Virus record (IMG/VR): IMGVR_UViG_3300037504_000213
Span: 12,274-76,273 of that record
DNA: 64,000 nt
Reading direction: 5' to 3' (one strand)
DNA from: a virus
Numbering within the stretch: the first letter of the stretch is position 1; every line of letters starts with the position of its first letter. The position numbers and the translations under genes were made by a program. Under the pieces are notes generated by a model. The model saw only the letters and a list, made by a program, of their open reading frames with translations. It did not search any database and was not told the DNA's origin. Positions 6,824 through 48,967 of this stretch are shown here, in pieces.

Positions 6824-7330
6824 TTAATTGTAGTCGAACTGATCTTTCCTAAACGAAGGCTGCACAAGATCTGAGTCGTCAAGAAGCTCTTCTTTGTCGG
6901 TTTTGCTTTGTCCAGTTATCTTGACATGTGTGTTATAAGTAAGGCCAAGCTCACTGAGTTTTGAGCACTTTAACATATCCAGGTTTTCAAGATACTCTTT
7001 TCGTCTCAACTCCCCCCTGGTTCTTTCCTCTATGGAGATCGTTGCAGATATTTGCCTATCCTCTGCTCTCCATGCGGCATACAGCGCGCTTGTGATAGTC
7101 AGGAATGGATAAAATGCTATGTCACTTCCGACTGGAACCGTATATCCGCGTGTCGCTAAAACAGCATTTATTTGCTGATCTGCGACATTCAACCATGTGT
7201 TTACAACGGTCAGTGAAGGATTAGTGTCACTGGCAAAATTACTTGCGCCAGTGCCACCATAGTCGGCGTCCGTAAATATGACTCCTTCTCCGACTATGGC
7301 AGCAACATCAGAGGCGGATGCGTACGACAT
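6824..7330 (-). CDS. Head-tail adaptor (Mu gp36/DUF1320-like)
   Basis: MSYASASDV, A..QINAVLATRGYTVPV pattern; follows the capsid gene. Confidence 0.65.
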   Translation of the reverse strand: MSYASASDVAAIVGEGVIFTDADYGGTGASNFASDTNPSLTVVNTWLNVADQQINAVLATRGYTVPVGSDIAFYPFLTITSALYAAWRAEDRQISATISIEERTRGELRRKEYLENLDMLKCSKLSELGLTYNTHVKITGQSKTDKEELLDDSDLVQPSFRKDQFDYN

Positions 7331-27288: not shown

Positions 27289-27300
27289 TTATCCTCCTTG

Positions 27301-27372
27301 AGGCCCAGGTGAGACTTGCACTCACATGAAAACGCTTTGCAGGCGTATACCTTTCTATTCGGACACTGGGCC
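27301..27372 (-). tRNA. tRNA-Cys(GCA)
   Basis: GGCCCAG/CTGGGCC acceptor, U73, ACGC-CTGCAAA-GCGT arm, T arm GTGAG-TGCAAGT-CTCAC; no CCA. Confidence 0.85.
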
Positions 27373-27374
27373 TA

Positions 27375-27447
27375 AGCTCCGAGTGAGATTTGCACTCACG
27401 GCCTCCGCGTTACAAAGGCGGCGCTCTACTAACTGAGCTATCGGAGC
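27375..27447 (-). tRNA. tRNA-Thr(UGU)
   Basis: GCTCCGA/TCGGAGC acceptor, loop TTTGTAA, C31:C39 mismatch, T loop TGCAAAT. Confidence 0.85.
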
Positions 27448-27457
27448 GTTGTACTAT

Positions 27458-27907
27458 TTAGCTACTTGGCCTCGACCAAGCTTCAATGGTCTTCTTCTTC
27501 TTTTCTACGCGATACCCCTTCGAGTCAGTGTAAAAAGCCCATTCTGCTCTGCCAGCCCCATTGCGCTTCCACTGGTAAAATATATAGTAAGCACCTGGAA
27601 AGTCATCAAACTGAAGAATGTATTCATGGCATGGTGAGTTCCATCCATTTCCTGCAAGTTTGTTGTGATCTATGAACTTGACGTTGTCAATTTTGTTGTT
27701 ATAACCCAAGTCTGCTATAAACTGCTCCCAACTCTTCCAACTTTTCAGGTTGCCAATACAAGGGCGATTCCTAAGATCGACATAATCTAAGGCTTCAATC
27801 GTGTCTGGTGCATTCACATTGTTTGGTGTACTCATGCCATTCTCCTTATTTGACAACTGTGGTTCAAGGCCAGTTATTTCCGCATTGTCCTTGCCTAATG
27901 TACTCAT
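27458..27907 (-). CDS. Hypothetical protein
   Basis: AAGGAG SD; paralogue of 25289-25621. Confidence 0.55.
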   Translation of the reverse strand: MSTLGKDNAEITGLEPQLSNKENGMSTPNNVNAPDTIEALDYVDLRNRPCIGNLKSWKSWEQFIADLGYNNKIDNVKFIDHNKLAGNGWNSPCHEYILQFDDFPGAYYIFYQWKRNGAGRAEWAFYTDSKGYRVEKKKKTIEAWSRPSS

Positions 27908-27918
27908 GTTTTTCTCCT

Positions 27919-28194
27919 TTAATAGTCCATTAAGTAATACTTATTATCACTTGACGATTTTACGTACTCGCCACCAACCCCAACATTCTTAAATCCACAC
28001 CTCATCAGATCCCCAATATCTATGGGACTGGATATGACATATCGATCAGGCTTAACCAGAAAATCATCACCTCCTAACATGTCTTCAAATTTTTTACGTG
28101 CGTCCTCCTCACTTTTTGCTGTTACAAGGGCTTGCCTAGTAGAGAAGCCACGCGGCCATTTAAATACCCACAGGTTGTCCTTTTCTGTTCTCAT
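27919..28194 (-). CDS. Hypothetical protein
   Basis: AGGAGG SD. Confidence 0.55.
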   Translation of the reverse strand: MRTEKDNLWVFKWPRGFSTRQALVTAKSEEDARKKFEDMLGGDDFLVKPDRYVISSPIDIGDLMRCGFKNVGVGGEYVKSSSDNKYYLMDY

Positions 28195-28221
28195 TATACC
28201 TCCTAACCTTAATTAAACCCA

Positions 28222-28294
28222 TGCTCGCGGCTGGACTCGAACCAGCAACCTGTCGGTTATGAGCCGAATGCTCTAACCATTGAGCTACGCGAGC
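28222..28294 (-). tRNA. tRNA-CAU (probably Ile2; elongator Met possible)
   Basis: GCTCGCG/CGCGAGC, loop CTCATAA, no initiator GGG/CCC stem; D and T arms resemble bacterial Ile2. Confidence 0.85.
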
Positions 28295-28594
28295 TTGTAT
28301 ATATTCTACCACTTGTTGTGTGGTGCCACAAGGGCAAGAACACAAGCGAGACCAAGGCGGCCAAGCAGCGCCAATGCCCTCAAGTTGGCTAAGTAGACAG
28401 ATCCCCGCATAACCTCATCTCCGTTATCTTCGCTAATAGCTTCAATCTCTAAGACTTTTTGTCCACCAAGATCACTTGGAGCATAAGCTGCCCACCAACA
28501 TCCGTGGTCATATTGCTTGCGCTCAATAGTATAACCAAGACCCTTAAGGGTCTCAACGATAAGTTTTGCGTCAGGGGGTTTTTCTTCCACCGTT

Positions 28595-29002
28595 TCACTC
28601 CTCCTCGACTTCCAGCTTTGCCATCTTGATCGTCGGGGCACGAGCATCGTCCCATACCCACATGGTATTGTGGTGCAATGCACGTGTAAAAAGTTCATCG
28701 GCGGGTCCTGCATAGTAGGTAATATAAATGTGAAATCCTATTCGGTGAAAGCTTCCCAAAACGGATATTCTAATACCGTTGGCTAAATGGTGTTCACCTC
28801 GGCAGTACCACAAATCATACTCACCACGATCCTTTGTCCATTCAAGATCGACCGCATCCTCACCAAGTGGAAGCGCGCCAAGCGCAAGGTGCGCCAACTT
28901 GTCGAAGTGAGGAATAGGGTCGCCAGCGGTTTTCGCATTTTTAAGCTCATTCTTCATGGCACCGTAAACGTTCATTGTTTTAGTCCTCCTCGTCTTCCGC
29001 AC
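28595..29002 (-). CDS. Hypothetical protein
   Basis: GAGGAGG SD before MNVYGAM (likely true start, ~28975). Confidence 0.5.
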   Translation of the reverse strand: MRKTRRTKTMNVYGAMKNELKNAKTAGDPIPHFDKLAHLALGALPLGEDAVDLEWTKDRGEYDLWYCRGEHHLANGIRISVLGSFHRIGFHIYITYYAGPADELFTRALHHNTMWVWDDARAPTIKMAKLEVEEE

Positions 29003-29024
29003 GCCACAATTTAAAAAGACAAAG

Positions 29025-29097
29025 CACCTGCTACAGGATTCGAACCTGTGACCAAGAGTTTAGAAGACTCCTGCTCTGTCCTCTGAGCTAAGCAGGC
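29025..29097 (-). tRNA. tRNA-Arg(UCU)
   Basis: GCCTGCT/AGCAGGT, GGAGT-CTTCTAA-ACTCT, GGTTCGAATCC. Confidence 0.9.
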
Positions 29098-29148
29098 TTG
29101 TTGCCAACGGCAAGATCGCTTTATAGACACGCAAGCTACGTTGGCAAA

Positions 29149-29220
29149 TCGGGCAGGGTAGAATCGAACTACCTTCAATTTCTTCATGAGAGAAATGCAC
29201 CTCCATTGTGCTTCTGCCCG
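29149..29220 (-). tRNA. Atypical tRNA with CAU anticodon
   Basis: Full cloverleaf: CGGGCAG/CTGCCCG-A, TTTCT-CTCATGA-AGAAA, GGTAG-TTCGATT-CTACC. Confidence 0.75.
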
Positions 29221-29223
29221 TAA

Positions 29224-29296
29224 TCTGGGTGATTGGACTTGAACCAACGACCTCCTCGACCCAAACGAGGCGCGCTACCATCTGCGCTACACCCAG
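29224..29296 (-). tRNA. tRNA-Pro(UGG)
   Basis: CTGGGTG/CACCCAG-A, CCTCG-TTTGGGT-CGAGG, GGTTCAAGTCC. Confidence 0.9.
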
Positions 29297-30000: not shown

Positions 30001-30399
30001 TTATACCCAATCGTCTGGAGAAGGCAAGTTAGAACTTCGTTTGATTTTTGTCTTGCCACATTCTCCACATGACGCAGAACTTGGGGGAACAATGCAACCA
30101 TGCGCACTTCCAGAAACAATGATTGAGTTACCGCCTGGGAGATCACCCTGAGAGATGTCGTATTGGTGCTGGCGTTCAAGCCAAAACTCACTCGGAATGC
30201 CAAGCCCGACACTTAGTTTGTCGGCAATCATGTTGTCTATAGACGTTCGTCCATCTAACACCATATCTGCTGCAAACGGAGAAACATTAAGCATTCCAGC
30301 AAGATCGAGCCTGTTCATGTTGGCGTCAGAAAGCACCTCACGCAACGTTTCAAACGGAGGTGTCACATAATCTGGATCATATTCCAAATAGTTCGTCAT
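30001..30399 (-). CDS. HigA/VapI-like HTH antitoxin with Cys-rich tail
   Basis: PPFETLREVL...DLA..L...I...A.KL...LG.P.EFWLE.Q..YD pattern. Confidence 0.7.
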   Translation of the reverse strand: MTNYLEYDPDYVTPPFETLREVLSDANMNRLDLAGMLNVSPFAADMVLDGRTSIDNMIADKLSVGLGIPSEFWLERQHQYDISQGDLPGGNSIIVSGSAHGCIVPPSSASCGECGKTKIKRSSNLPSPDDWV

Positions 30400-31072
30400 G
30401 TTTTCTTTTCTCCTCTGGGGACATCATGGTTTCAAGCGTTGCAATATCATGCAAGTCAGCAAGCACGTTTTTCCAATACTCAACATTCTGTCCGCGAACA
30501 CGGGAAATGACTGGCTCCCTTTTCTGTCCCTGGTATTTGCCGTTTCTATCAGCATACGATACAGCTGGCTCGTCTATCCATCTGAAGACTAACTGTGCCA
30601 CACCTTCTCCAACACGCAGCTTGATGGGCCTAGGAGCAGCGTTAAACAATTCAAGTGTGAGGTATCCCTCCCATTCACTCTCTGCTGGCGTTAATAATGG
30701 CAATATACCAACACGGGCAAGTGTAGATTTTCCCAAACACTCTACCATAATGTTTCTTGGTATTCTTAAATATTCTATAGAGTGTCCAAGTACAAATTGC
30801 CCTGGCTGAAGAATAATGTGATTTTTTCTATGAACAACCTGAAAGTCGTCTTCAGCAACATGTGCCAAGTCCAAAACTTCGTCAGACGGGATCATAAACT
30901 TGAACGTTTCACCAAGCCTAATATCATAACCGCTTGATGACAGACCATATGATATTCCATCGCTGACTTGGTGAGAGACGAATGGAGAAATCATTGGTTG
31001 CTGTTTGTCACACAGCTGTGCTATTTGCTTGTCGTTTAGTGTCCCTCTCCCCCCTCCTATCTCTCTCTTCAC
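30377..31072 (-). CDS. dcd: dCTP deaminase
   Basis: ISYGLSSSGYDIRL, CLGKSTLARVG, TPAESEWEGYLTLE, GEGVAQLVF, GKYQGQ. Confidence 0.93.
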   Translation of the reverse strand: MKREIGGGRGTLNDKQIAQLCDKQQPMISPFVSHQVSDGISYGLSSSGYDIRLGETFKFMIPSDEVLDLAHVAEDDFQVVHRKNHIILQPGQFVLGHSIEYLRIPRNIMVECLGKSTLARVGILPLLTPAESEWEGYLTLELFNAAPRPIKLRVGEGVAQLVFRWIDEPAVSYADRNGKYQGQKREPVISRVRGQNVEYWKNVLADLHDIATLETMMSPEEKRKHDELFGI

Positions 31073-32782: not shown

Positions 32783-33064
32783 TTAGAATGGCTCTACTTT
32801 GTCTGGGTGCGTCCAGATTATAACTCGTGATGGGTGCTCTGAGAACCATATCTTTACCATCCGAGGGTCACCTAGGTAATGCGCAGGTGGTTCAACCCAG
32901 TTTTCATCCAGAAAAGTTGGTTCGTATGCAGTATGTTCCCATTCATCAGTCGTGTTTTTCACTGTTTCGTCGTCTACTCTCTTTGAAACACCAACTATCA
33001 CATCTACATCGCCAAGATCTTCCATATAGTCTTGCAGGTCAGCAATCAGTTCACTTAATTTCAT
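32783..33064 (-). CDS. Hypothetical protein
   Basis: MKLSELIADLQ..GDVDV start typical of small phage proteins; GGGAG SD. Confidence 0.55.
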   Translation of the reverse strand: MKLSELIADLQDYMEDLGDVDVIVGVSKRVDDETVKNTTDEWEHTAYEPTFLDENWVEPPAHYLGDPRMVKIWFSEHPSRVIIWTHPDKVEPF

Positions 33065-33656
33065 TTTTATCTCCCTTGCTTTTATTCCACCACCATTCCA
33101 TTGTAACTGGGAAGTGGCTCTTTGTCAATGATTGCATTGCCCAGGCATAGCTGGCTGTTTCTGGCTGAGCGTGGTCACTGCATCGAAGGTCGAAGAAGTT
33201 GAGCAAGCTGCGGAGGTTCATTTTCATCTGGAACACGGTGTATGTTCCCATAGGCAGCACCGAACGAGCATAGCCAGGGCGTTCCCCGCGATCAAGCATG
33301 GTGTAGTACACCTCTGTAGCTTGGTCGTATACAGCATAAAGCTCAGGCTCGCCCTGGTCAAAGAATTTCAAATCGGATGGCACTACATATCTCAGTGACC
33401 TTTCAAGGTATGACGCAATGCGATGCCTCATAATTTGTCTCTGCACGAAGATAGGGCATTCCAATCGAAAGTGCATGGATGCGAACTCGAATGGGCTGGT
33501 GTGCCCAAGGTCAAGTAGCTTCCTGACGAGTTGCTCGTTGCTTTCACCGTCACCCTCTGACTGCCAGCTTTCTCTGGCCACGTTGGCAATTAGCTGGTCA
33601 CTTCCGTAGTGGCCGATGTATTCCACAAAGCCATCGTAGACTTCTATTTTGCTCAT
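33051..33656 (-). CDS. thyX: Flavin-dependent thymidylate synthase
   Basis: GHTSPFEF, PIFVQRQIMRHR..SY.ERSLRY, ARSVLP, MNLRSLLNFFDLR..HAQPE. Confidence 0.93.
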   Translation of the reverse strand: MSKIEVYDGFVEYIGHYGSDQLIANVARESWQSEGDGESNEQLVRKLLDLGHTSPFEFASMHFRLECPIFVQRQIMRHRIASYLERSLRYVVPSDLKFFDQGEPELYAVYDQATEVYYTMLDRGERPGYARSVLPMGTYTVFQMKMNLRSLLNFFDLRCSDHAQPETASYAWAMQSLTKSHFPVTMEWWWNKSKGDKNEIK

Positions 33657-33887: not shown

Positions 33888-34166
33888 TTACACATCTTCG
33901 TTTTCAGCAGCCAGTTCAACAAGTTTCTCAGCTGCGTTCATTACCCGCTCGCGGAAATTACCACTTGACCCGCGCCAACACAAGTTGATGTCTTTTGGCT
34001 TGACATGATCTGCAAAAAGCTGGATTAGCATTGTCCTTGCGGTTCCCCTCGACGCGAAAGCAGCCGCCTCAAGGTGTGCTGCGCGGTCATTCGATAGTTG
34101 ATCGTGTGCAAGCTCTTCATAGTAGATCGATGCAGCGTTGATTAAATTCTGTTTGTCAATGTACAT
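33888..34166 (-). CDS. Hypothetical protein
   Basis: Overlaps the Ro60 stop. Confidence 0.5.
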   Translation of the reverse strand: MYIDKQNLINAASIYYEELAHDQLSNDRAAHLEAAAFASRGTARTMLIQLFADHVKPKDINLCWRGSSGNFRERVMNAAEKLVELAAENEDV

Positions 34167-35688
34167 AGTTTCTCTCGCCTACAAAGTTAGAAATCAAACC
34201 TGGGACATTGGCATCAAACCCAACAATGTCTATCATACCAGGATCGTTGGGATCGGCGATGCTGAACTCTGTCGCTGTGGTGGCAGCAACCAACAGCTTG
34301 GCATTGTGAACGCCTGATTGTTCGCGGTACATCCTGAGGGCATCAGCAGGCACGTACTTGTTGACATTGGTCTCGTTATCTGTGTAAATCACAAATGCGT
34401 CGTACAGCAAACCCTTTTCCATTGCCCAAACCATTGGCATGTCGCATGCCGTTGCGCCGAAATTGAGAGATCGTATCTCTGCGATTATCTCTCCAAGGCT
34501 CATTCTGTCATGCAGCTTTAAAGGAACAATGTCTTTCGAGAAAGCTATAATATCCCAGTCATCCTCAATGCGCATTGTAATCATAGCCATTGCAGCACTG
34601 ATTTCCCTGGGTGTAAGGCCACCCCATGCGTTATCGAATGTCATGGAGCTTGACACGTCAAGTGCAATGCAAATGCGTTTTCCAGTTGGCTCCACGTTGT
34701 CAAACGCAAGGTAAAACATTTCATCAAGCGCAGATATAATGTGTCCTATTGGATCCCACGAGTTGCTGCCCCTAATGCCCTCTCCGTTGCTGTATGTAAC
34801 CAACGCCGACAAAACTGTAATGGGGTGAATGCGTGACCTTATAACAGATGTTCTGTCTGTAAGCATTTTGGCAACACTTCGAACGTTGTCACGAGAATCG
34901 AAGTAACCTGATCGGGTGATAGTGCCAAGGTTTCGAACAATTTCCCAAAGACCCATGTTGGGCATAAGGGCTTCCCAGGCTTCTGAGAATTTCCACAGTT
35001 CTCCTGGTACAATTGAGCGAGGGAGGCCGTATTCTTCAATAATTGCTATGGCCCTGCGTGCATCGTTGGTATCTTTCAGTAGTTCGTACCCCACAGTAAG
35101 TTTTGTGTTTGGGTTTTCCTTGCCAACGGTCCATCCAAACAGCCTGTCGTGCCATACGCTAGCTGGCTTGACGTGTGCCAGCCTGAGGACATCTCGGTGA
35201 GACATGCCACCGCGCTGTCCATACTTTACGATTTGGTAGTCAACAGCATCCTTTGTGTTATACCACGCCGCAAAGGCTCGCCGTATCATTCTCCCCCATC
35301 CGCGCATATCGTTTATGAAGTTGGCTATAGTCAAGAGGTGAGAACCTGTTCTGACTGTTTTGAGGAATGTGCTAACGAAGTCTTCGTGCGCACCAGTGGT
35401 TGACACTAGCGCAAGCGCAAATAACGCTGGATCGTTTGATGGTGCACGCCCGCTATCGCTAATGTCGCCGATTAGCTTAAGCGTTCGTTTGGGATTTTCT
35501 CGTGCACACTCAAGTACAACATCTGCATTGTCTTCTGTGAGTTTGCTTGAGTTTGCATAATACGTCGAGGCACTTCCTATAATAAGAAAGCGTTCCAAAC
35601 GTGTCCATTTGTCAACGACATATGACATGCCGCCACCATTATTGTGTCTTAAGCCATCCTTATGTCTTTTGCTGTAGTTTCTATACAT
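34156..35688 (-). CDS. rsr: Ro60/Rsr TROVE-vWA RNA-binding protein
   Basis: NNGGG, RLERFLIIGS, GWGRMIRRA...WY, KYGQRGGMSHRDVLRLAH, RNLG, ALDVSSSM, GATACDMPM, YTDNET, FSIADPNDPGM..IVGFD; start MYRNYS after AGGAGA. Confidence 0.93.
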   Translation of the reverse strand: MYRNYSKRHKDGLRHNNGGGMSYVVDKWTRLERFLIIGSASTYYANSSKLTEDNADVVLECARENPKRTLKLIGDISDSGRAPSNDPALFALALVSTTGAHEDFVSTFLKTVRTGSHLLTIANFINDMRGWGRMIRRAFAAWYNTKDAVDYQIVKYGQRGGMSHRDVLRLAHVKPASVWHDRLFGWTVGKENPNTKLTVGYELLKDTNDARRAIAIIEEYGLPRSIVPGELWKFSEAWEALMPNMGLWEIVRNLGTITRSGYFDSRDNVRSVAKMLTDRTSVIRSRIHPITVLSALVTYSNGEGIRGSNSWDPIGHIISALDEMFYLAFDNVEPTGKRICIALDVSSSMTFDNAWGGLTPREISAAMAMITMRIEDDWDIIAFSKDIVPLKLHDRMSLGEIIAEIRSLNFGATACDMPMVWAMEKGLLYDAFVIYTDNETNVNKYVPADALRMYREQSGVHNAKLLVAATTATEFSIADPNDPGMIDIVGFDANVPGLISNFVGERNYVH

Positions 35689-35706
35689 AGTTTCTCCTAA
35701 CAAGCA

Positions 35707-35734
35707 CGGGATGCCATTTGATTCTGGCATCCCG
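35707..35734 (-). terminator. Strong hairpin between Y-RNA-like leader and Ro60 start
   Basis: CGGGATGCCA-N8-TGGCATCCCG followed by TGCTTGTT. Confidence 0.55.
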
Positions 35735-37175: not shown

Positions 37176-37643
37176 TTACTTTCCAGTCCATTCGTGGATC
37201 CAACAGATATTAGGCAGAGGCCGTAGTGCCTTTTCCATTACTGGCTTTACAACCTCCCACTCAAGTCCACCGAGTCCACATCCTAACATTGGGAACGCAT
37301 ATTCATGCTGGTGCGCTGTATTTATTGCCTCGATGAGCTTTACGCAGTACGCAAGGGTTTCTTCTACAAACAACTTTGTGGATTTTTCCCAGTGATTAAC
37401 CTTGGTTGGCAAGCTGATGAACGGCTTTGTGATGCCACCATCTGTTGCCACGAGCATCAACACTCGTGCTCTGTCATAGTCTCCAGCACGGCAGTGCAAT
37501 CTGTGCTGCTTTAGAAGCTCTGGGTAACGATCTGCAAACTTTTTGGCAAGTCCAGCGCCCATGACGCCAGACTTGTTTGTCGGAATGACCTGGATAACGT
37601 TGATTGGGTGATTAAAAATGCTGTCATTGGTGTATTTAATCAT
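37176..37643 (-). CDS. Macrodomain ADP-ribose hydrolase (DarG/TARG1-like)
   Basis: N..GVMGAGLAKKF..RYP, LPTK.NHW..S, AFPMLGCGLGGLEW. Confidence 0.85.
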   Translation of the reverse strand: MIKYTNDSIFNHPINVIQVIPTNKSGVMGAGLAKKFADRYPELLKQHRLHCRAGDYDRARVLMLVATDGGITKPFISLPTKVNHWEKSTKLFVEETLAYCVKLIEAINTAHQHEYAFPMLGCGLGGLEWEVVKPVMEKALRPLPNICWIHEWTGK

Positions 37644-38948: not shown

Positions 38949-39395
38949 CTACTCTTCGCATTCTTCCCTCCGTTTTCTGTATCCAAGCCACAAAAGGGCG
39001 TAGTTAGCAAGATCCATGATGGTGTCCTCAAACCTCTCGTCCTCAAAGTCCTGGTTTGGTGTCTCCGTTATTCTGGCCCACTTCAGGGCCATGTAAAACA
39101 AAAACGCTTGGTCAATCGGCATTCCAGTAAGCTGGCTTACTTTTTCAAAGTTAACGAACGGGTTGGGGTTCTGATCTTCATGTCCAGCGTATTTTCGCCT
39201 GCGATCAGCCACGACATCGCCAGCTTCCAAAACGGCGCTGAGCCACCACTCGTTGGCAGATTTGACGTTTTCTTCCCAAGACTCTAGTTGGATATTCCCC
39301 AACCACCCAAAGAAACTGTTACAATTCTCACACATAACCTCCCGCGTTTCTTCATCTATATTGAATGTGTCGTTGCCGCAGTTTTTGCATTTCAT
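38949..39395 (-). CDS. Zn-ribbon + DUF1599/Nmad1-like (MazG-fold) protein
   Basis: CKNC..CENC; KYAG..PFVNF..K.ARI..E.FEDT.MDLANYALL. Confidence 0.7.
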   Translation of the reverse strand: MKCKNCGNDTFNIDEETREVMCENCNSFFGWLGNIQLESWEENVKSANEWWLSAVLEAGDVVADRRRKYAGHEDQNPNPFVNFEKVSQLTGMPIDQAFLFYMALKWARITETPNQDFEDERFEDTIMDLANYALLWLGYRKRREECEE

Positions 39396-39910
39396 CGGTT
39401 ATCTCCTTCTCCGTGAATAGCGTTGCGTTGTGCTCTGTCCGTTAGCTTTGCAACGTTCATGTCCATGATTTCTTCGATTGACGATCCAAGGCGGCTGGCA
39501 AGTTCGTTTATGGCGCTCAGGGAAATTGTGATAGAAATCTCAAGGTACGGCAGATCGGGAAAAATAATGTTGTTCTCTATCTGAGACAGGTTTCTTGATA
39601 TGATATTGAGAAGGCTTGACCATGAAAACTCTGCCAGTTCAGTATATTTCATTTCATGTCCAGTATGATCGGCAACCCTGGCAATATACCACAGCACATC
39701 ACCAAGTTCATCAAGCACCTTGGCGCGACGTTCCTCAGTAAGCTCTGCTTTGTAGTCACTGACGGCACACCCGTCGTCTCTGATAGCCTTCTTCAGTTGG
39801 TTGCGAACCTCGCCCCATTCCCAAAGGCCGTGCGGTACATAGTCTTTCCACATGTCGTGGTCATACTTTGCTGTTGACCGCGTGAACTCCATATATTCCT
39901 GTGGTTTCAT
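39392..39910 (-). CDS. MazG-like NTP pyrophosphohydrolase
   Basis: E.GEV..KK.IRD, DELGDVLWY, N..KL.DR..R..I.G.GDNR. Confidence 0.85.
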   Translation of the reverse strand: MKPQEYMEFTRSTAKYDHDMWKDYVPHGLWEWGEVRNQLKKAIRDDGCAVSDYKAELTEERRAKVLDELGDVLWYIARVADHTGHEMKYTELAEFSWSSLLNIISRNLSQIENNIIFPDLPYLEISITISLSAINELASRLGSSIEEIMDMNVAKLTDRAQRNAIHGEGDNR

Positions 39911-40817: not shown

Positions 40818-41402
40818 TCACTCCTCTACTTTCTCGATTAATACTAGACGCCCGCATCGAATTTTTCCATTCGTGTTGAATGGCACGATAACATCAGCCA
40901 AATCGCACCATTCGATGCGGCATCGCCATATCACCACGTTTTTGTAGTGTTCCCGAACCCAATCCAACGTGGCTGCTGCAATACCGCAACCACACTCCGT
41001 GCATGGGTCTGGATTCACCGTCTCCGTGAGAACCGCACCAGGGGCGAACAGCCAATGGTCAGGATTATCAAATCGGCCCTTCTCGCTGCGGTACACAATG
41101 TATCCGCGCTCATCAGACTCTAAATTTTTTCTCATCCACTCGGATGTGGATACGAGGCCCGTTGCACCGCTTAGGTCTGCGTAGTGCAGGTCCGTATAGC
41201 GCAGGTCCGTGTTGTTGAGGTTCGCGTAGCGCAGGTTTGCGTCGCTCAGGTCCGCATAGCGCAGGTCCGCGAAGCGCAGGTTCGCGCCGCTCAGATTTAC
41301 GCCGCTCAGGTTCGAACTGCGCAGGTCTGCGTAACTCAGATCAGGGGTTTCGCCTCTCTCGCGGGCGTCTTCAACTATCCTTAATACGTCTTGTCTGTTC
41401 AT
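40818..41402 (-). CDS. Pentapeptide repeat protein with C-terminal domain
   Basis: ADLRY/ANLRY repeats; CGCGI...GKIRC C-terminus. Confidence 0.85.
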   Translation of the reverse strand: MNRQDVLRIVEDARERGETPDLSYADLRSSNLSGVNLSGANLRFADLRYADLSDANLRYANLNNTDLRYTDLHYADLSGATGLVSTSEWMRKNLESDERGYIVYRSEKGRFDNPDHWLFAPGAVLTETVNPDPCTECGCGIAAATLDWVREHYKNVVIWRCRIEWCDLADVIVPFNTNGKIRCGRLVLIEKVEE

Positions 41403-46805: not shown

Positions 46806-47255
46806 TTGTGCTACTTTGCGTTTTGTGATATAATGATATAGGAGGAAACATGAAGGACATTTGGATACTTGAGTTCGTCACGAACGGCGGGCTTGTACAG
46901 GCCAAACGTAATGACGTGTGCAATACACTTAGATCGCGATAGCAAAAATGGAGGTTGCAATGGATGGAGCCAAAGAATTATCCGAAAAGTTTGGTGTCGT
47001 TGTATTGGTAATTTTGGTGGTTTTGGCGGGGATTGCGGTTGTTTTGTTGTTTGTTGATGTGTTGGGTGATATTCTAAACGGCAACTTCTACGTTAGGTAC
47101 AGAGTAGAAGACATAGACGACGGATATATTACACTTTCAGACAGACACCGCACTGTAACGTGCAGGGTTAACGACTGGGTGGTTGACTTTATCACGCATG
47201 GCGGCAAATTAGAAGCTATGCACAGCGATGTATGCGGTACCTTGAGGGCGCAATA

Positions 47256-47957
47256 ATGACATGTGACCTTTGTAATGGCACTTCATACGTAACTGGCGAA
47301 GATGGTCGGCCAGCGCGCTGCCCAAAATGCAATAAAGGGCCACGTCGCTCTGACATCATTCTCTCCAGGGCTGGTATACCGCCACGATTTGATAAGTCAA
47401 TGCCCTTGGCAGATGCTTTGTCATCGCTGTCTACGTCTATTAACGAGCAGGCTCGTACAAATGTAGCCAAGTATGCCGAGTCCTTGACTGTTGTTCGCTC
47501 ATCTGGACAGGAATTGCACTCCCTGGTGTTCTATGGCAAGCCAGGGAGTGGCAAGACCAGCCTTGCAACCACAGTGTTTAAGCAAATCATATGCAACGGC
47601 CTTGTTGACAGCGCCTTGTGGGTAAATTCATCGGACCTACCAACCATGGTTCGTGCCACCTACGGCACATCTACATCTGAAGATGATGTCATCGATAAGT
47701 ACAAAATGACTGACTTACTATTGCTTGACGATTTCGGCAGGGGAAATATTACCAAGCACGCAGAGGATTTGACATATCGTGTCATGGACTATCGATATAG
47801 ATGGGATTTGCCACTGATTGTTACGACAAACGACGATCCCAGAGAGTTGGTTGAAAAGTTTGATATGGCCGTTGTGCAGCGTGTAGCAAGTACAGCGGCG
47901 TGGATAAGAATGGATGCACTTAAACGTGGCATTAAGCTAGAGGAGTGGGAGAAGTGA
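47256..47957 (+). CDS. DnaC/IstB-like helicase loader ATPase
   Basis: CDLC..CPKC, GIPPRF, GKPGSGKT, LLLLDDFG, IVTTN. Confidence 0.88.
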   Translation: MTCDLCNGTSYVTGEDGRPARCPKCNKGPRRSDIILSRAGIPPRFDKSMPLADALSSLSTSINEQARTNVAKYAESLTVVRSSGQELHSLVFYGKPGSGKTSLATTVFKQIICNGLVDSALWVNSSDLPTMVRATYGTSTSEDDVIDKYKMTDLLLLDDFGRGNITKHAEDLTYRVMDYRYRWDLPLIVTTNDDPRELVEKFDMAVVQRVASTAAWIRMDALKRGIKLEEWEK

Positions 47958-48207
47958 CGAGGTTCTTTGTATTCTTGCTTGCCCTGTGCATTGCGGCAAT
48001 AGGCGTTATCATGGTCATTAACGAGGTAGAGAGGCAGGGCTTGGTAATCATTGGCATTTCGTATACGGGTAGTGGCAAACTGCTGTTGTTTGAGATCGGT
48101 GGCCGCAAGGAAGCCTGTGTTATAACGGATGAGCAGATTGAGGCATTGCAAAATGGCGCTATGCTGTATGCCAGTATAGACAGGCCATGCGAATGGGAGA
48201 TACGGTA

Positions 48208-48732
48208 ATGGCTGTTTTAGGAGAATCCGCAACGTCATATAATGGTGACGGGGCATTAATTATGGTCAAGCAGGCTAGTGGTGATAAAGGTTTCCAAGAT
48301 CCAGGCAATATGTTATGTATAGATGCCACCAATCGTCTGGTAGCTATGTATGAGACATGGCTATATGACAATGACATAGGATACAAATATATTAATTTCG
48401 ATAGGCTTGGTGGTTTATTTAGATCGGTAACAATTCTTGCAAATGACGGTCATGGCTTTTTGGAACAAGAAACTGGATTTCATAGGTATGTGTCAATAAA
48501 TCCATACGACTCGATGTCGCGCCGATGGACCGTGTTTGTTGGCGTAAGGGTCGTTAGATCAAATATTTCGTTTCTTGAATATCTTAATCTTGTAGATGAA
48601 GGGTTAAGCCCCTGTCGAAGCTATGACATTTACAGGGGTCGCATAACAAACGAGCGAGAAGGAATTAGCACCGACAAAGTTGAAGAATATTTTAACGGTA
48701 ATTTAGGGCTAGTGAGGAGAAATAATGGCTGA
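48208..48732 (+). CDS. Truncated release factor 2 homologue (PCRF domain, no GGQ domain)
   Basis: MY..W, RSVTI, GFLEQETGFHRYVSINPYD..SRRWTVFVGV, CRSY, R.G..T..V..Y.NGNL; start after GGGAGA. Confidence 0.75.
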   Translation: MAVLGESATSYNGDGALIMVKQASGDKGFQDPGNMLCIDATNRLVAMYETWLYDNDIGYKYINFDRLGGLFRSVTILANDGHGFLEQETGFHRYVSINPYDSMSRRWTVFVGVRVVRSNISFLEYLNLVDEGLSPCRSYDIYRGRITNEREGISTDKVEEYFNGNLGLVRRNNG

Positions 48733-48967
48733 GACAGTAGACGCAACGACAGTAGTGTTTGGAATCCCTGTTGATGGAGAAACCCCAGTTAACGTTGAGG
48801 TATCTCCAAGTGGTGCCAGAATTGGCCCTATGCCTTGGATGTCTGGCGAGGGCATAGCATTAAACGGAGATAATGTGATTGCGAGGTTTGCAGCGCTCAA
48901 AGAGGCCCTTGCACACACAGAGAGGCTGTATATCGCAATGACAAGTGCCAGTGGGCTGGAAATCTAA
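48725..48967 (+). CDS. Hypothetical protein
   Basis: GAGGAG SD. Confidence 0.55.
   Translation: MAETVDATTVVFGIPVDGETPVNVEVSPSGARIGPMPWMSGEGIALNGDNVIARFAALKEALAHTERLYIAMTSASGLEI

What the first reader, a model, noticed from the sequence alone, without database searches (positions are those of the whole stretch)
48208..48732. Release-factor-2 mimic with the catalytic GGQ domain deleted
Seen: the protein follows RF2 domains 2/4. ETGFHRYVSINPYD..SRRWTVF matches E.GVHRLVRISPFD..RRHTSF; a ~20-aa linker then leads straight to CRSY (RF2 IRSY) and NGNL (DGDL). Domain 1 and the whole GGQ domain 3 are absent, and the SPF stop-recognition loop is NPY. Established: SPF reads UAA/UGA and GGQ hydrolyses peptidyl-tRNA. 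Inference: an A-site-binding decoy that cannot release peptide. It could block termination or ribosome rescue, or shield the A site from RelE/HigB-type toxins. Phage genes here use all three stops, so recoding is not the explanation.
Basis: partly seen in the sequence, partly recalled or inferred. Interest (0 to 1): 0.8.

Follow-up and report, generated by a model that had tools for sequence, protein, structure and literature searches.

The report
Phage mini release factor lacking GGQ
An uncultured tidal-flat phage carries an intact 174-residue gene made only of the stop-codon-reading half of bacterial release factor 2. It has no peptide-cutting domain and its codon-reading loops are altered, so it may sit in the ribosome's decoding site without ending translation; its function is untested.

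Summary
ORF 48208-48732 (+) is homologous to RF2 (TIGR00020 E 1e-10; PDB RF2 E 1e-6). A profile comparison with 14 other GGQ-less short forms gives probability 99.1%, E 1e-18.

An alignment-based AlphaFold model (pLDDT 79) superposes on E. coli RF2 at Z 17.9. Model residues 13-174 cover RF2 125-363 and skip domain 3. Domain 1 and the GGQ domain are absent from the gene, and no RF-1 domain occurs anywhere in the 76-kb phage record.

The gene is not unique. At least 16 distinct GGQ-less mini-RF2 sequences exist in metagenomes and viral contigs. One of them was already found by this scan in another phage (e1-6023765). Another is a clean 84-residue excision from a proteobacterial-type RF2. These relatives keep the GGxE, SPF and RRHTSF reading motifs.

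This copy is the most diverged. It keeps 24 of 51 RF2-conserved positions. It has an 8-residue insert at the helix-alpha-5 tip, NPY for SPF and RRWTVF for RRHTSF.

Best reading: a non-catalytic binder of the decoding centre that competes with termination or rescue factors, with changed or lost stop-codon specificity. The decoy idea is plausible but untested. Toxin shielding has no support. I found no published description. Interest is moderate to high.

The parts
48195..48199 (+). Shine-Dalgarno-like GGGAG, 8 nt before the ATG
   Evidence: Read directly from the sequence.
48208..48732 (+). Mini-RF2 gene: 174 codons plus TGA. The start overlaps the upstream stop (TAATG). The stop overlaps the next gene's start by 8 nt.
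   Evidence: The identical protein is also on record from a second assembly collection (Logan), probably from the same tidal-flat sample.
48244..48558 (+). RF2 domain-2-like part, residues 13-117
   Evidence: TIGR00020 E 1e-10; PDB RF2 E 1e-6; structural superposition.
48289..48312 (+). 8-residue insert (GFQDPGNM, residues 28-35) at the loop and helix-alpha-5 tip, where RF2 has GGxE
   Evidence: In alignment A3 this insert is absent from all 15 other short forms and from 88 of 89 full-length RF2.
48499..48507 (+). NPY in place of the SPF stop-codon recognition tripeptide
   Evidence: Ser is invariant in the 104 other aligned sequences.
48520..48537 (+). RRWTVF in place of RRHTSF. This is the beta-strand that carries the third-base reading residues and that ArfA pairs with in RF2.
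   Evidence: ArfA contacts at RF2 213-217 are described in PMC5378476.
48559..48606 (+). Short linker, residues 118-133, standing where RF2 has about 95 residues including domain 3 and GGQ
   Evidence: Alignments A2/A3; hhalign.
48607..48717 (+). RF2 domain-4-like part, residues 134-170 (CRSY ... NGNL)
   Evidence: hhalign; model pLDDT 88-96; aligned to RF2 up to residue 363.
47232..47957 (+). DnaC-like helicase loader, upstream in the same + strand gene row
   Evidence: phrog_50, E 6e-32.
47945..48208 (+). 87-residue hydrophobic small ORF directly upstream; no family match
48725..48967 (+). 80-residue ORF overlapping the mini-RF2 stop; the last gene of the + strand row; no family match

Best explanation
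The gene encodes a stand-alone, catalytically inert copy of the RF2 codon-recognition superdomain (domains 2+4). It lies at the end of the phage's replication-gene row.

Shown: homology, a predicted fold that matches the RF2 superdomain (the model is not independent of the RF2 alignment), absence of domain 1 and of the GGQ domain, and the same architecture in other phages.

Inferred: the protein docks in the ribosomal decoding centre (30S A site) the way the RF2 superdomain does. Having no domain 3, it occupies the site without releasing the peptide. It would thus compete with RF2/RF1 or with RF2-dependent rescue and slow or redirect termination during infection.

The U1-reading helix tip, the SPF loop and the His/Ser of RRHTSF are all changed in this copy. 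Its specificity is therefore probably no longer canonical UGA/UAA. It may read another A-site state or bind independently of the codon.
For: - Sequence homology.
- Fold: the model has pLDDT 78.7. It superposes on 1gqe and on ribosome-bound RF2 chains at Z 16-18, rmsd about 3 A over about 149 residues, covering RF2 125-363 and skipping domain 3.
- No RF-1 domain anywhere in the record.
- Recurring architecture: about 12 short forms turned up in an exhaustive search of 1.84 billion representatives. There are also viral contigs L007/8/9, L010 and L004. All 14 tested are PCRF-positive, and none has a credible RF-1 match; one reaches only E 0.004.
- The other short forms keep the reading residues: E of GGxE 14/15, S and P of SPF 15/15, H 13/15, T and S 15/15. 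That pattern makes sense only if they still engage the decoding site.
- L004 is 64-70% identical to a full RF2, with 84 residues cleanly excised. The deletion therefore seems to have arisen more than once.
- The query still keeps exposed charged RF2-invariant residues: H92, R93, D101, R105, R106, T108, R137, R150.
- The ORF is intact, has an SD, and overlaps both neighbouring genes.
- Established knowledge: the superdomain binds the stop codon and decoding centre, and domain 3 carries the catalytic GGQ (PMC6742477, PMC5378476).
Against: - There is no experimental or expression evidence.
- The query is the most diverged member. It keeps 24/51 conserved positions, against 30-46/51 in the other short forms, and its terminal branch is 5.4 substitutions per site.
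- The residues lost are the ones that read the stop codon, and the switch-loop Trp is absent.
- It has no close relatives, so selection on this copy cannot be measured.
- The model rests on an alignment dominated by RF2, so its fold is not independent evidence. A single-sequence model failed (pLDDT 35).
- RF2 domains 1 and 3 also contribute to ribosome binding. Whether the superdomain alone binds stably is not known to me.
- No gene neighbour is conserved among the mini-RF2 loci.
Confidence: 0.45

Rival explanations
1. It is an RNA-binding protein that works off the ribosome. In this reading it is an RF2 derivative turned into an mRNA-binding or stabilising factor, as happened with plant chloroplast PrfB3, which lost SPF and GGQ and protects petB 3' ends.
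For: PrfB3 sets the precedent (PMC5897788). This copy has lost SPF (NPY) and other reading residues but keeps Arg/His surface residues. The phage carries other RNA-handling genes: Ro60, six tRNAs and a Macro domain.
Against: PrfB3 keeps the full-length RF2 layout, whereas here domains 1 and 3 are physically removed. The short relatives keep intact stop-codon reading motifs, which points to the ribosome. No target RNA is evident.
Confidence: 0.15
2. It is a protein decoy rather than a ribosome decoy. It would titrate a factor that normally grips the RF2 superdomain, for example an ArfA- or BrfA-type rescue factor, and so disable RF2-dependent rescue of non-stop ribosomes. SPF is not needed for that interaction.
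For: ArfA binds RF2 residues 213-217, V198, F217 and W319, and SPF mutations do not disturb ArfA-mediated release (PMC5378476). The query keeps the strand (RRWTVF) and F110, the equivalent of F217.
Against: The switch-loop Trp that explains ArfA's preference for RF2 is missing in the query, and V198 is Phe. The host is unknown, as is whether it has ArfA or BrfA. ArfA acts on the ribosome, so this rival overlaps with A-site binding.
Confidence: 0.12
3. It is a decaying or functionless remnant of a captured prfB fragment. The ORF would be open only because it is young or by chance.
For: It has the longest branch in the tree and has lost 27 of 51 conserved positions. No relative above 35% identity was found among 5.8 billion clustered proteins (word-based search) or 1.84 billion representatives searched exhaustively. 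It is held by a single sequencing run.
Against: After that much divergence, a 174-codon frame is intact in a tightly packed phage, with an SD and overlaps with both neighbours. The retained residues are the fold core plus exposed Arg/His positions. The model is confident where the core lies. The linker length matches that of the other short forms.
Confidence: 0.15
4. It helps stop-codon reassignment: a factor that blocks host RF2 so that a phage suppressor tRNA can read UGA.
For: Some phages with recoded stops carry release factors, and full-length RF2 genes occur in Lak phages and other viral contigs.
Against: All three stops end genes here: TAA 45, TGA 36, TAG 20. The six tRNAs are Cys, Thr, Met x2, Arg and Pro, and none is a suppressor. 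ORFs are long under table 11. An occupied A site would also exclude a suppressor tRNA.
Confidence: 0.03

Closest known systems
Bacterial class I release factor RF2 (prfB; TIGR00020; structures 1GQE, 5MDW, 4V67)
   Same: Domains 2 and 4 are homologous and are predicted to form the same compact codon-recognition superdomain (Z 17.9). The GxHR, P99, D101, RR-T-F and RSY elements are conserved.
   Different: No domain 1, and no domain 3 or GGQ. SPF is NPY and RRHTSF is RRWTVF. The GGxE tip is replaced by an 8-residue longer loop. The switch-loop Trp is absent. Scores are far below the family cut-offs (41 against 370 bits; 22.2 against 24 bits).
Other GGQ-less mini-RF2 proteins of phages and metagenomes
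   Same: The same layout of domain 2, short linker and domain 4 (hhalign E 1e-18). They are PCRF-positive, and none has a credible RF-1 match (one reaches only E 0.004). They are phage-borne accessory genes.
   Different: The others keep GGxE, SPF (or SPY/SPH), RRHTSF and often the switch-loop Trp. This copy does not. No neighbourhood is shared.
PrfH (RF-H), the RtcB2-linked factor for damaged ribosomes (7SA4, 9MOR)
   Same: An RF2-family protein without domain 1 and with a remodelled reading head that recognises something other than a stop codon.
   Different: PrfH keeps the GGQ domain and is paired with RtcB2. Here there is no GGQ and no RtcB in the record. The structural match is much weaker (Z 9.9 against 17.9), and no PrfH NCBIfam model hit at E<=10.
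Plant chloroplast PrfB3
   Same: An RF2 derivative that lost both SPF and GGQ function and acquired a role outside termination (PMC5897788).
   Different: PrfB3 is eukaryotic and nuclear-encoded and is described as homologous to PrfB1. It is not a domain 2/4 minimal protein. Its target is the petB 3' UTR.
Dom34/Pelota (eRF1 paralogue)
   Same: The working analogy, from my own knowledge: a release-factor-shaped A-site binder without the catalytic GGQ and without stop-codon reading.
   Different: Unrelated fold family (eRF1, not RF1/RF2). It works with Hbs1 and ABCE1 and is archaeal or eukaryotic.

Membership tests
RF2 (prfB, class I release factor) | Codon-recognition domain 2 (Pfam PCRF, C-terminal part) | tested here: met
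   PCRF E 1.4e-4 (22.2 bits, cut-off 24); TIGR00020 E 1.1e-10; PDB RF2 E 1.1e-6.
RF2 (prfB, class I release factor) | Domain 4 packing on domain 2 | tested here: met
   hhalign spans residues 39-170. The model aligns to RF2 up to residue 363 at Z 17.9. The model depends on an RF2-rich alignment.
RF2 (prfB, class I release factor) | Catalytic domain 3 with GGQ (Pfam RF-1, PF00472) | tested here: not met
   No RF-1 hit in the protein or in six frames of the whole 76-kb record at E<=1. 16 linker residues stand where RF2 has about 95.
RF2 (prfB, class I release factor) | N-terminal domain 1 | tested here: not met
   Only 12-14 low-confidence residues precede domain 2. The upstream ORF is an unrelated hydrophobic 87-mer.
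RF2 (prfB, class I release factor) | SPF tripeptide and RRHTSF reading strand | tested here: not met
   NPY and RRWTVF. Ser98, His107 and Ser109 are invariant or nearly so in the 104 other sequences.
RF2 (prfB, class I release factor) | Whole-protein score above the curated family cut-off | tested here: not met
   41.1 bits against a TIGR00020 cut-off of 370.
GGQ-less mini-RF2 group (informal) | Domain 2, a short linker (about 10-25 residues) and domain 4 in one polypeptide of about 130-265 residues, PCRF-positive and RF-1-negative | tested here: met
GGQ-less mini-RF2 group (informal) | Conserved stop-codon reading motifs (GGxE, SPF/SPY/SPH, RR[HY]TSF) | tested here: not met
   The query has lost all three elements. 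The other members keep them.
GGQ-less mini-RF2 group (informal) | Single evolutionary origin (a true family) | tested here: inconclusive
   The quick tree on 133 columns needs 4 label changes. One origin is not excluded, and the long branches are unresolved. L004 and P0056 sit close to full-length RF2s, which suggests repeated excision.
PrfH / RF-H | GGQ domain retained; paired with an RtcB2 ligase gene | tested here: not met
   No RF-1 and no RtcB in the record. The record is estimated at 65% complete.
Ribosomal A-site binding proteins (functional class) | Physical binding to the 30S decoding centre | not testable with these tools
   Needs co-sedimentation, toeprinting or cryo-EM.

The most novel reading that the evidence does not exclude
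Phages have repeatedly carved RF2 down to its codon-reading superdomain to make trans-acting inhibitors or modulators of termination and rescue. In this phage the reading head has been retooled through a helix-tip insert, NPY and Trp for His. The change is comparable in kind to the loop changes that give mitochondrial mtRF1 its non-standard specificity (from my own knowledge). The protein would then recognise a different A-site signal, such as a sense codon, an empty A site or a damaged one, and arrest or protect particular ribosomes during infection.
Probability: 0.15. Interest if true: 0.85.

Novelty: new variant of a known kind. Interest (0 to 1): 0.62.

Why it matters
Engineered GGQ mutants of release factors are standard tools that trap ribosomes at stop codons. 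A natural, phage-encoded release factor with the catalytic domain physically removed would be a new way for a virus to interfere with the last step of host translation or with ribosome rescue.

The recurrence of the same architecture in unrelated phages, some with intact reading motifs and one with a rebuilt reading head, offers a ready series for two questions. Can the RF2 superdomain bind the A site alone? How do its loops set specificity? Such proteins could also serve as tools to pause ribosomes at defined codons.

My four full-text searches found no paper describing this, although much subscription literature is not covered by that library.

Tried and rejected
- Single-sequence AlphaFold gave an unusable model (pLDDT 35).
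- The word-based homologue search with the query alone found only the query itself. Profile and short-query searches were swamped by full-length or fragmentary RF2. P0186 looks like a frameshifted full RF2 and was not counted as a short form.
- megablast of 3 kb against GenBank phages found no match. tblastn found only domain 2 of full-length phage RF2 genes such as those of Lak phages.
- Scans of viral contigs with P0017 and P0008 found nothing. The genome-contig scan with P0163 returned only full-length RF2 genes.
- The L007, L008 and L009 loci are identical in DNA, so they give no test of selection.
- Sequencing runs: one DNA holder, a tidal-flat metagenome that is probably the source, and no RNA holder listed.
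- Complex prediction of the mini-RF2 with the overlapping downstream 80-residue ORF gave no answer (score 0.00). This is not evidence either way.
- ESM Atlas: recognition was below threshold, and the hits (BNR_4 sialidase-like clusters) are taken as noise.
- PADLOC: no match for the query, three other short forms or the two neighbouring small ORFs.
- Recoding was rejected on stop usage and tRNA content.
- A split gene or frameshift supplying GGQ from elsewhere was rejected.
- The net charge and pI of the superdomain part are like those of RF2, so they do not discriminate.
- Promoter and terminator scans were not above shuffled expectation.

Full report
**What is there.** The window is bases 12274-76273 of a 76,273-base IMG/VR virus record estimated at 65% complete. 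The only sequencing run that holds the stretch is a tidal-flat metagenome.

The ORF at 48208-48732 on the + strand encodes 174 residues. Its ATG overlaps the stop of the upstream 87-codon ORF (TAATG), and GGGAG lies 8 nt upstream. Its TGA overlaps the ATG of an 80-codon downstream ORF by 8 nt.

It is the second-last gene of a + strand row. That row holds an AAA_24 protein, a DnaB-type helicase, an HTH protein and a DnaC-like helicase loader.

**Is it RF2-like beyond chance?** Yes.
- Pfam PCRF: E 1.4e-4, 22.2 bits, just under the 24-bit cut-off, residues 41-113 on the last 76 positions of the model.
- NCBIfam TIGR00020 (prfB): E 1.1e-10 for residues 38-116.
- phmmer against PDB sequences: only RF2 chains at the top (E 1.1e-6), with residues 41-116 on RF2 144-222. 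A weak but collinear second stretch, 134-166, falls on E. coli RF2 321-353.
- PHROGs: the only hit is phrog_19918 (E 1.2e-5, residues 42-116), the same phrog that the canonical short form of L004 matches.

**Is the GGQ domain really gone?** There is no RF-1 (PF00472) signal in the protein. There is none in any frame of the whole record at E<=1, while the control genomes rang.

In alignments with 89 full-length RF2 sequences, the query passes from the strand after RRWTVF through 16 linker residues straight into CRSY. RF2 has about 95 residues there, including GGQ. Only about 12 disordered residues precede domain 2, so domain 1 is absent too.

**Fold.** A single-sequence AlphaFold run failed (pLDDT 35). 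With a 105-row alignment (the query, 15 short forms and 89 RF2), the model reaches mean pLDDT 78.7 and pTM 0.78, with 88-96 over the domain-4 part.

Foldseek returns only RF2 and RF1 chains (E down to 8e-9, query-normalised TM about 0.66). VIA-align gives Z 17.9, rmsd 2.9 A over 149 residues against 1GQE, with model residues 13-174 on RF2 125-363. PrfH scores only Z 9.9.

The alignment is dominated by RF2, so the model is consistent with the homology but is not independent proof of it.

**Relatives.** An exhaustive phmmer search of 1.84 billion representatives found 43 hits at E<=1e-3. Most are ordinary RF2 sequences that match residues 36-117 only. About a dozen are proteins of 130-216 residues that match residues 38-168 in a single stretch.

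Their sequences show domain 2, then a linker of 10-25 residues, then domain 4. More turned up later: P0056, P0182 and several viral contigs.
- L007/L008/L009 carry an identical 169-residue protein. It sits between head and head-tail connector genes of a 78-kb contig.
- L010 carries a 264-residue form with an extra N-terminal part, in a 105-kb contig.
- L004 carries a 178-residue form among phage-family genes.

All 14 short forms tested match PCRF. Only one has a weak RF-1 hit, at E 0.004. hhalign of the query against a profile of these 14, built without the query, gives probability 99.1% and E 1e-18 over residues 39-170.

The L007 protein is the one already reported by this scan as e1-6023765. 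That report called it unique to one phage. It is not.

**One origin or several?** The L004 protein is 64% and 70% identical to a full-length proteobacterial-type RF2 (L006) over its two halves. RF2 residues 174-257 are replaced by six residues, and domain 1 is trimmed off. P0056 also sits on a short branch next to full RF2 sequences.

A quick tree on 133 columns leaves the short forms unresolved. It needs four label changes, a single origin is not excluded, and there are many long branches. I read this as probable repeated excision of domains 1 and 3, but that is not proven.

**How this copy differs.** Fifty-one domain 2/4 positions are at least 90% conserved in the 89 full-length RF2 sequences. 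The query keeps 24 of them, whereas the other short forms keep 30-46. Its terminal branch is 5.4 substitutions per site, the longest in the tree.

The losses cluster in the reading head.
- The G-x-G-G-x-E loop before helix alpha 5 becomes A-S-G-D-K plus an 8-residue insert.
- The residue aligned with the loop's Glu is Leu.
- The other changes are R96S, S98N and F100Y (SPF to NPY), H107W, S109V, and loss of the Pro after RSYV.
- The switch-loop Trp, which several short forms keep just before xQIRSY, is absent.

Retained are the fold core and a set of exposed polar residues: H92, R93, D101, R105, R106, T108, R137, S138, Y139 and R150.

The other short forms keep the reading residues almost perfectly: Glu 14/15, Ser and Pro 15/15, His 13/15, Thr and Ser 15/15.

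**Mechanism.** It is established that the domain 2/4 superdomain binds the stop codon and decoding centre through SPF and neighbouring elements. [quoted passage not shown]

A protein with only the superdomain cannot hydrolyse peptidyl-tRNA. That follows directly. Everything beyond that is inference.

For the canonical short forms, strict conservation of the reading residues is hard to explain unless they still dock on stop codons. They would therefore be natural competitors of RF2, and of RF1 at UAA.

For this copy, the head is rebuilt. I think the most likely role is still decoding-site binding, because the charged surface residues are retained and the linker matches the group. The signal it recognises is probably altered or lost.

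The alternatives are:
- off-ribosome RNA binding in the manner of PrfB3 (PMC5897788);
- titration of an ArfA-type partner, which binds RF2 213-217, V198, F217 and W319 and does not need SPF;
- decay without function.

Recoding is excluded in practice. Stops are TAA 45, TGA 36 and TAG 20 in crude gene calls, and the six tRNAs include no suppressor. The RelE/HigB shielding idea has no supporting observation.

**Literature and novelty.** Four full-text searches found no description of a phage-encoded or bacterial RF2 lacking domain 3. The nearest published concepts are PrfH (PMC1586002, listed), PrfB3 and, as an analogy, Dom34/Pelota.

I rate it a new variant of a known kind. The scan had already met the architecture once, in e1-6023765. 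This report adds that it recurs in several phages and that this copy has a remodelled reading head.

**Limits.** There are no expression data. The complex prediction with the downstream ORF gave no verdict.

Noticed in passing
window 34156-35730 (-): The phage encodes a Ro60/TROVE protein with a vWA domain (PF25045 E 5e-59, PF05731 E 5e-24). No RtcB is present in the record. Earlier notes of this scan discuss a possible Y-RNA-like leader upstream.
   Followed up: partly
window 27300-29296 (-): A cluster of six tRNA genes: Cys-GCA, Thr-TGT, Met-CAT twice, Arg-TCT and Pro-TGG. None is a suppressor.
   Followed up: partly
window 37176-37643 (-), 39392-39910 (-), 40818-41402 (-): Accessory genes upstream of the replication row: a Macro domain protein (E 7e-8), a weak MazG-like match (E 2.6e-4, below cut-off) and a pentapeptide-repeat protein (E 9e-23).
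   Followed up: no
window 50406-51320 (-), 33051-33656 (-), 30377-31072 (-): An aldo/keto reductase, a ThyX thymidylate synthase and a dCTP deaminase-like gene.
   Followed up: no
L004:4026-4562 (+), compared with L006:158-1126: A viral contig carries a 178-residue RF2 that is 64-70% identical to a full-length proteobacterial-type RF2. Domain 3 (84 residues) is cleanly excised, domain 1 is trimmed, and the switch-loop Trp and SPY are kept. This is the youngest-looking mini-RF2 and a good subject for experiments.
   Followed up: partly
P0220 (241 aa, 965-base metagenome contig): An RF2 that keeps domain 1 and domains 2/4 but lacks domain 3 exactly (…SPEIDDTIVIDIKFGSQIRSY…). It may be a real variant or an assembly artefact.
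   Followed up: no
L010:7273-7878 (-) and 6965-7276 (-): A SocA/Panacea-domain antitoxin gene (E 1e-18) with an overlapping 103-codon partner lies 0.6-0.9 kb downstream of the 264-residue mini-RF2, on the opposite strand. Two IS1595-type transposases are nearby.
   Followed up: no
L002, L003, L005; GenBank Lak phages: Full-length RF2 genes with GGQ occur in several viral contigs and in all Lak megaphages. L002 has SPY and RQTSF variants.
   Followed up: no
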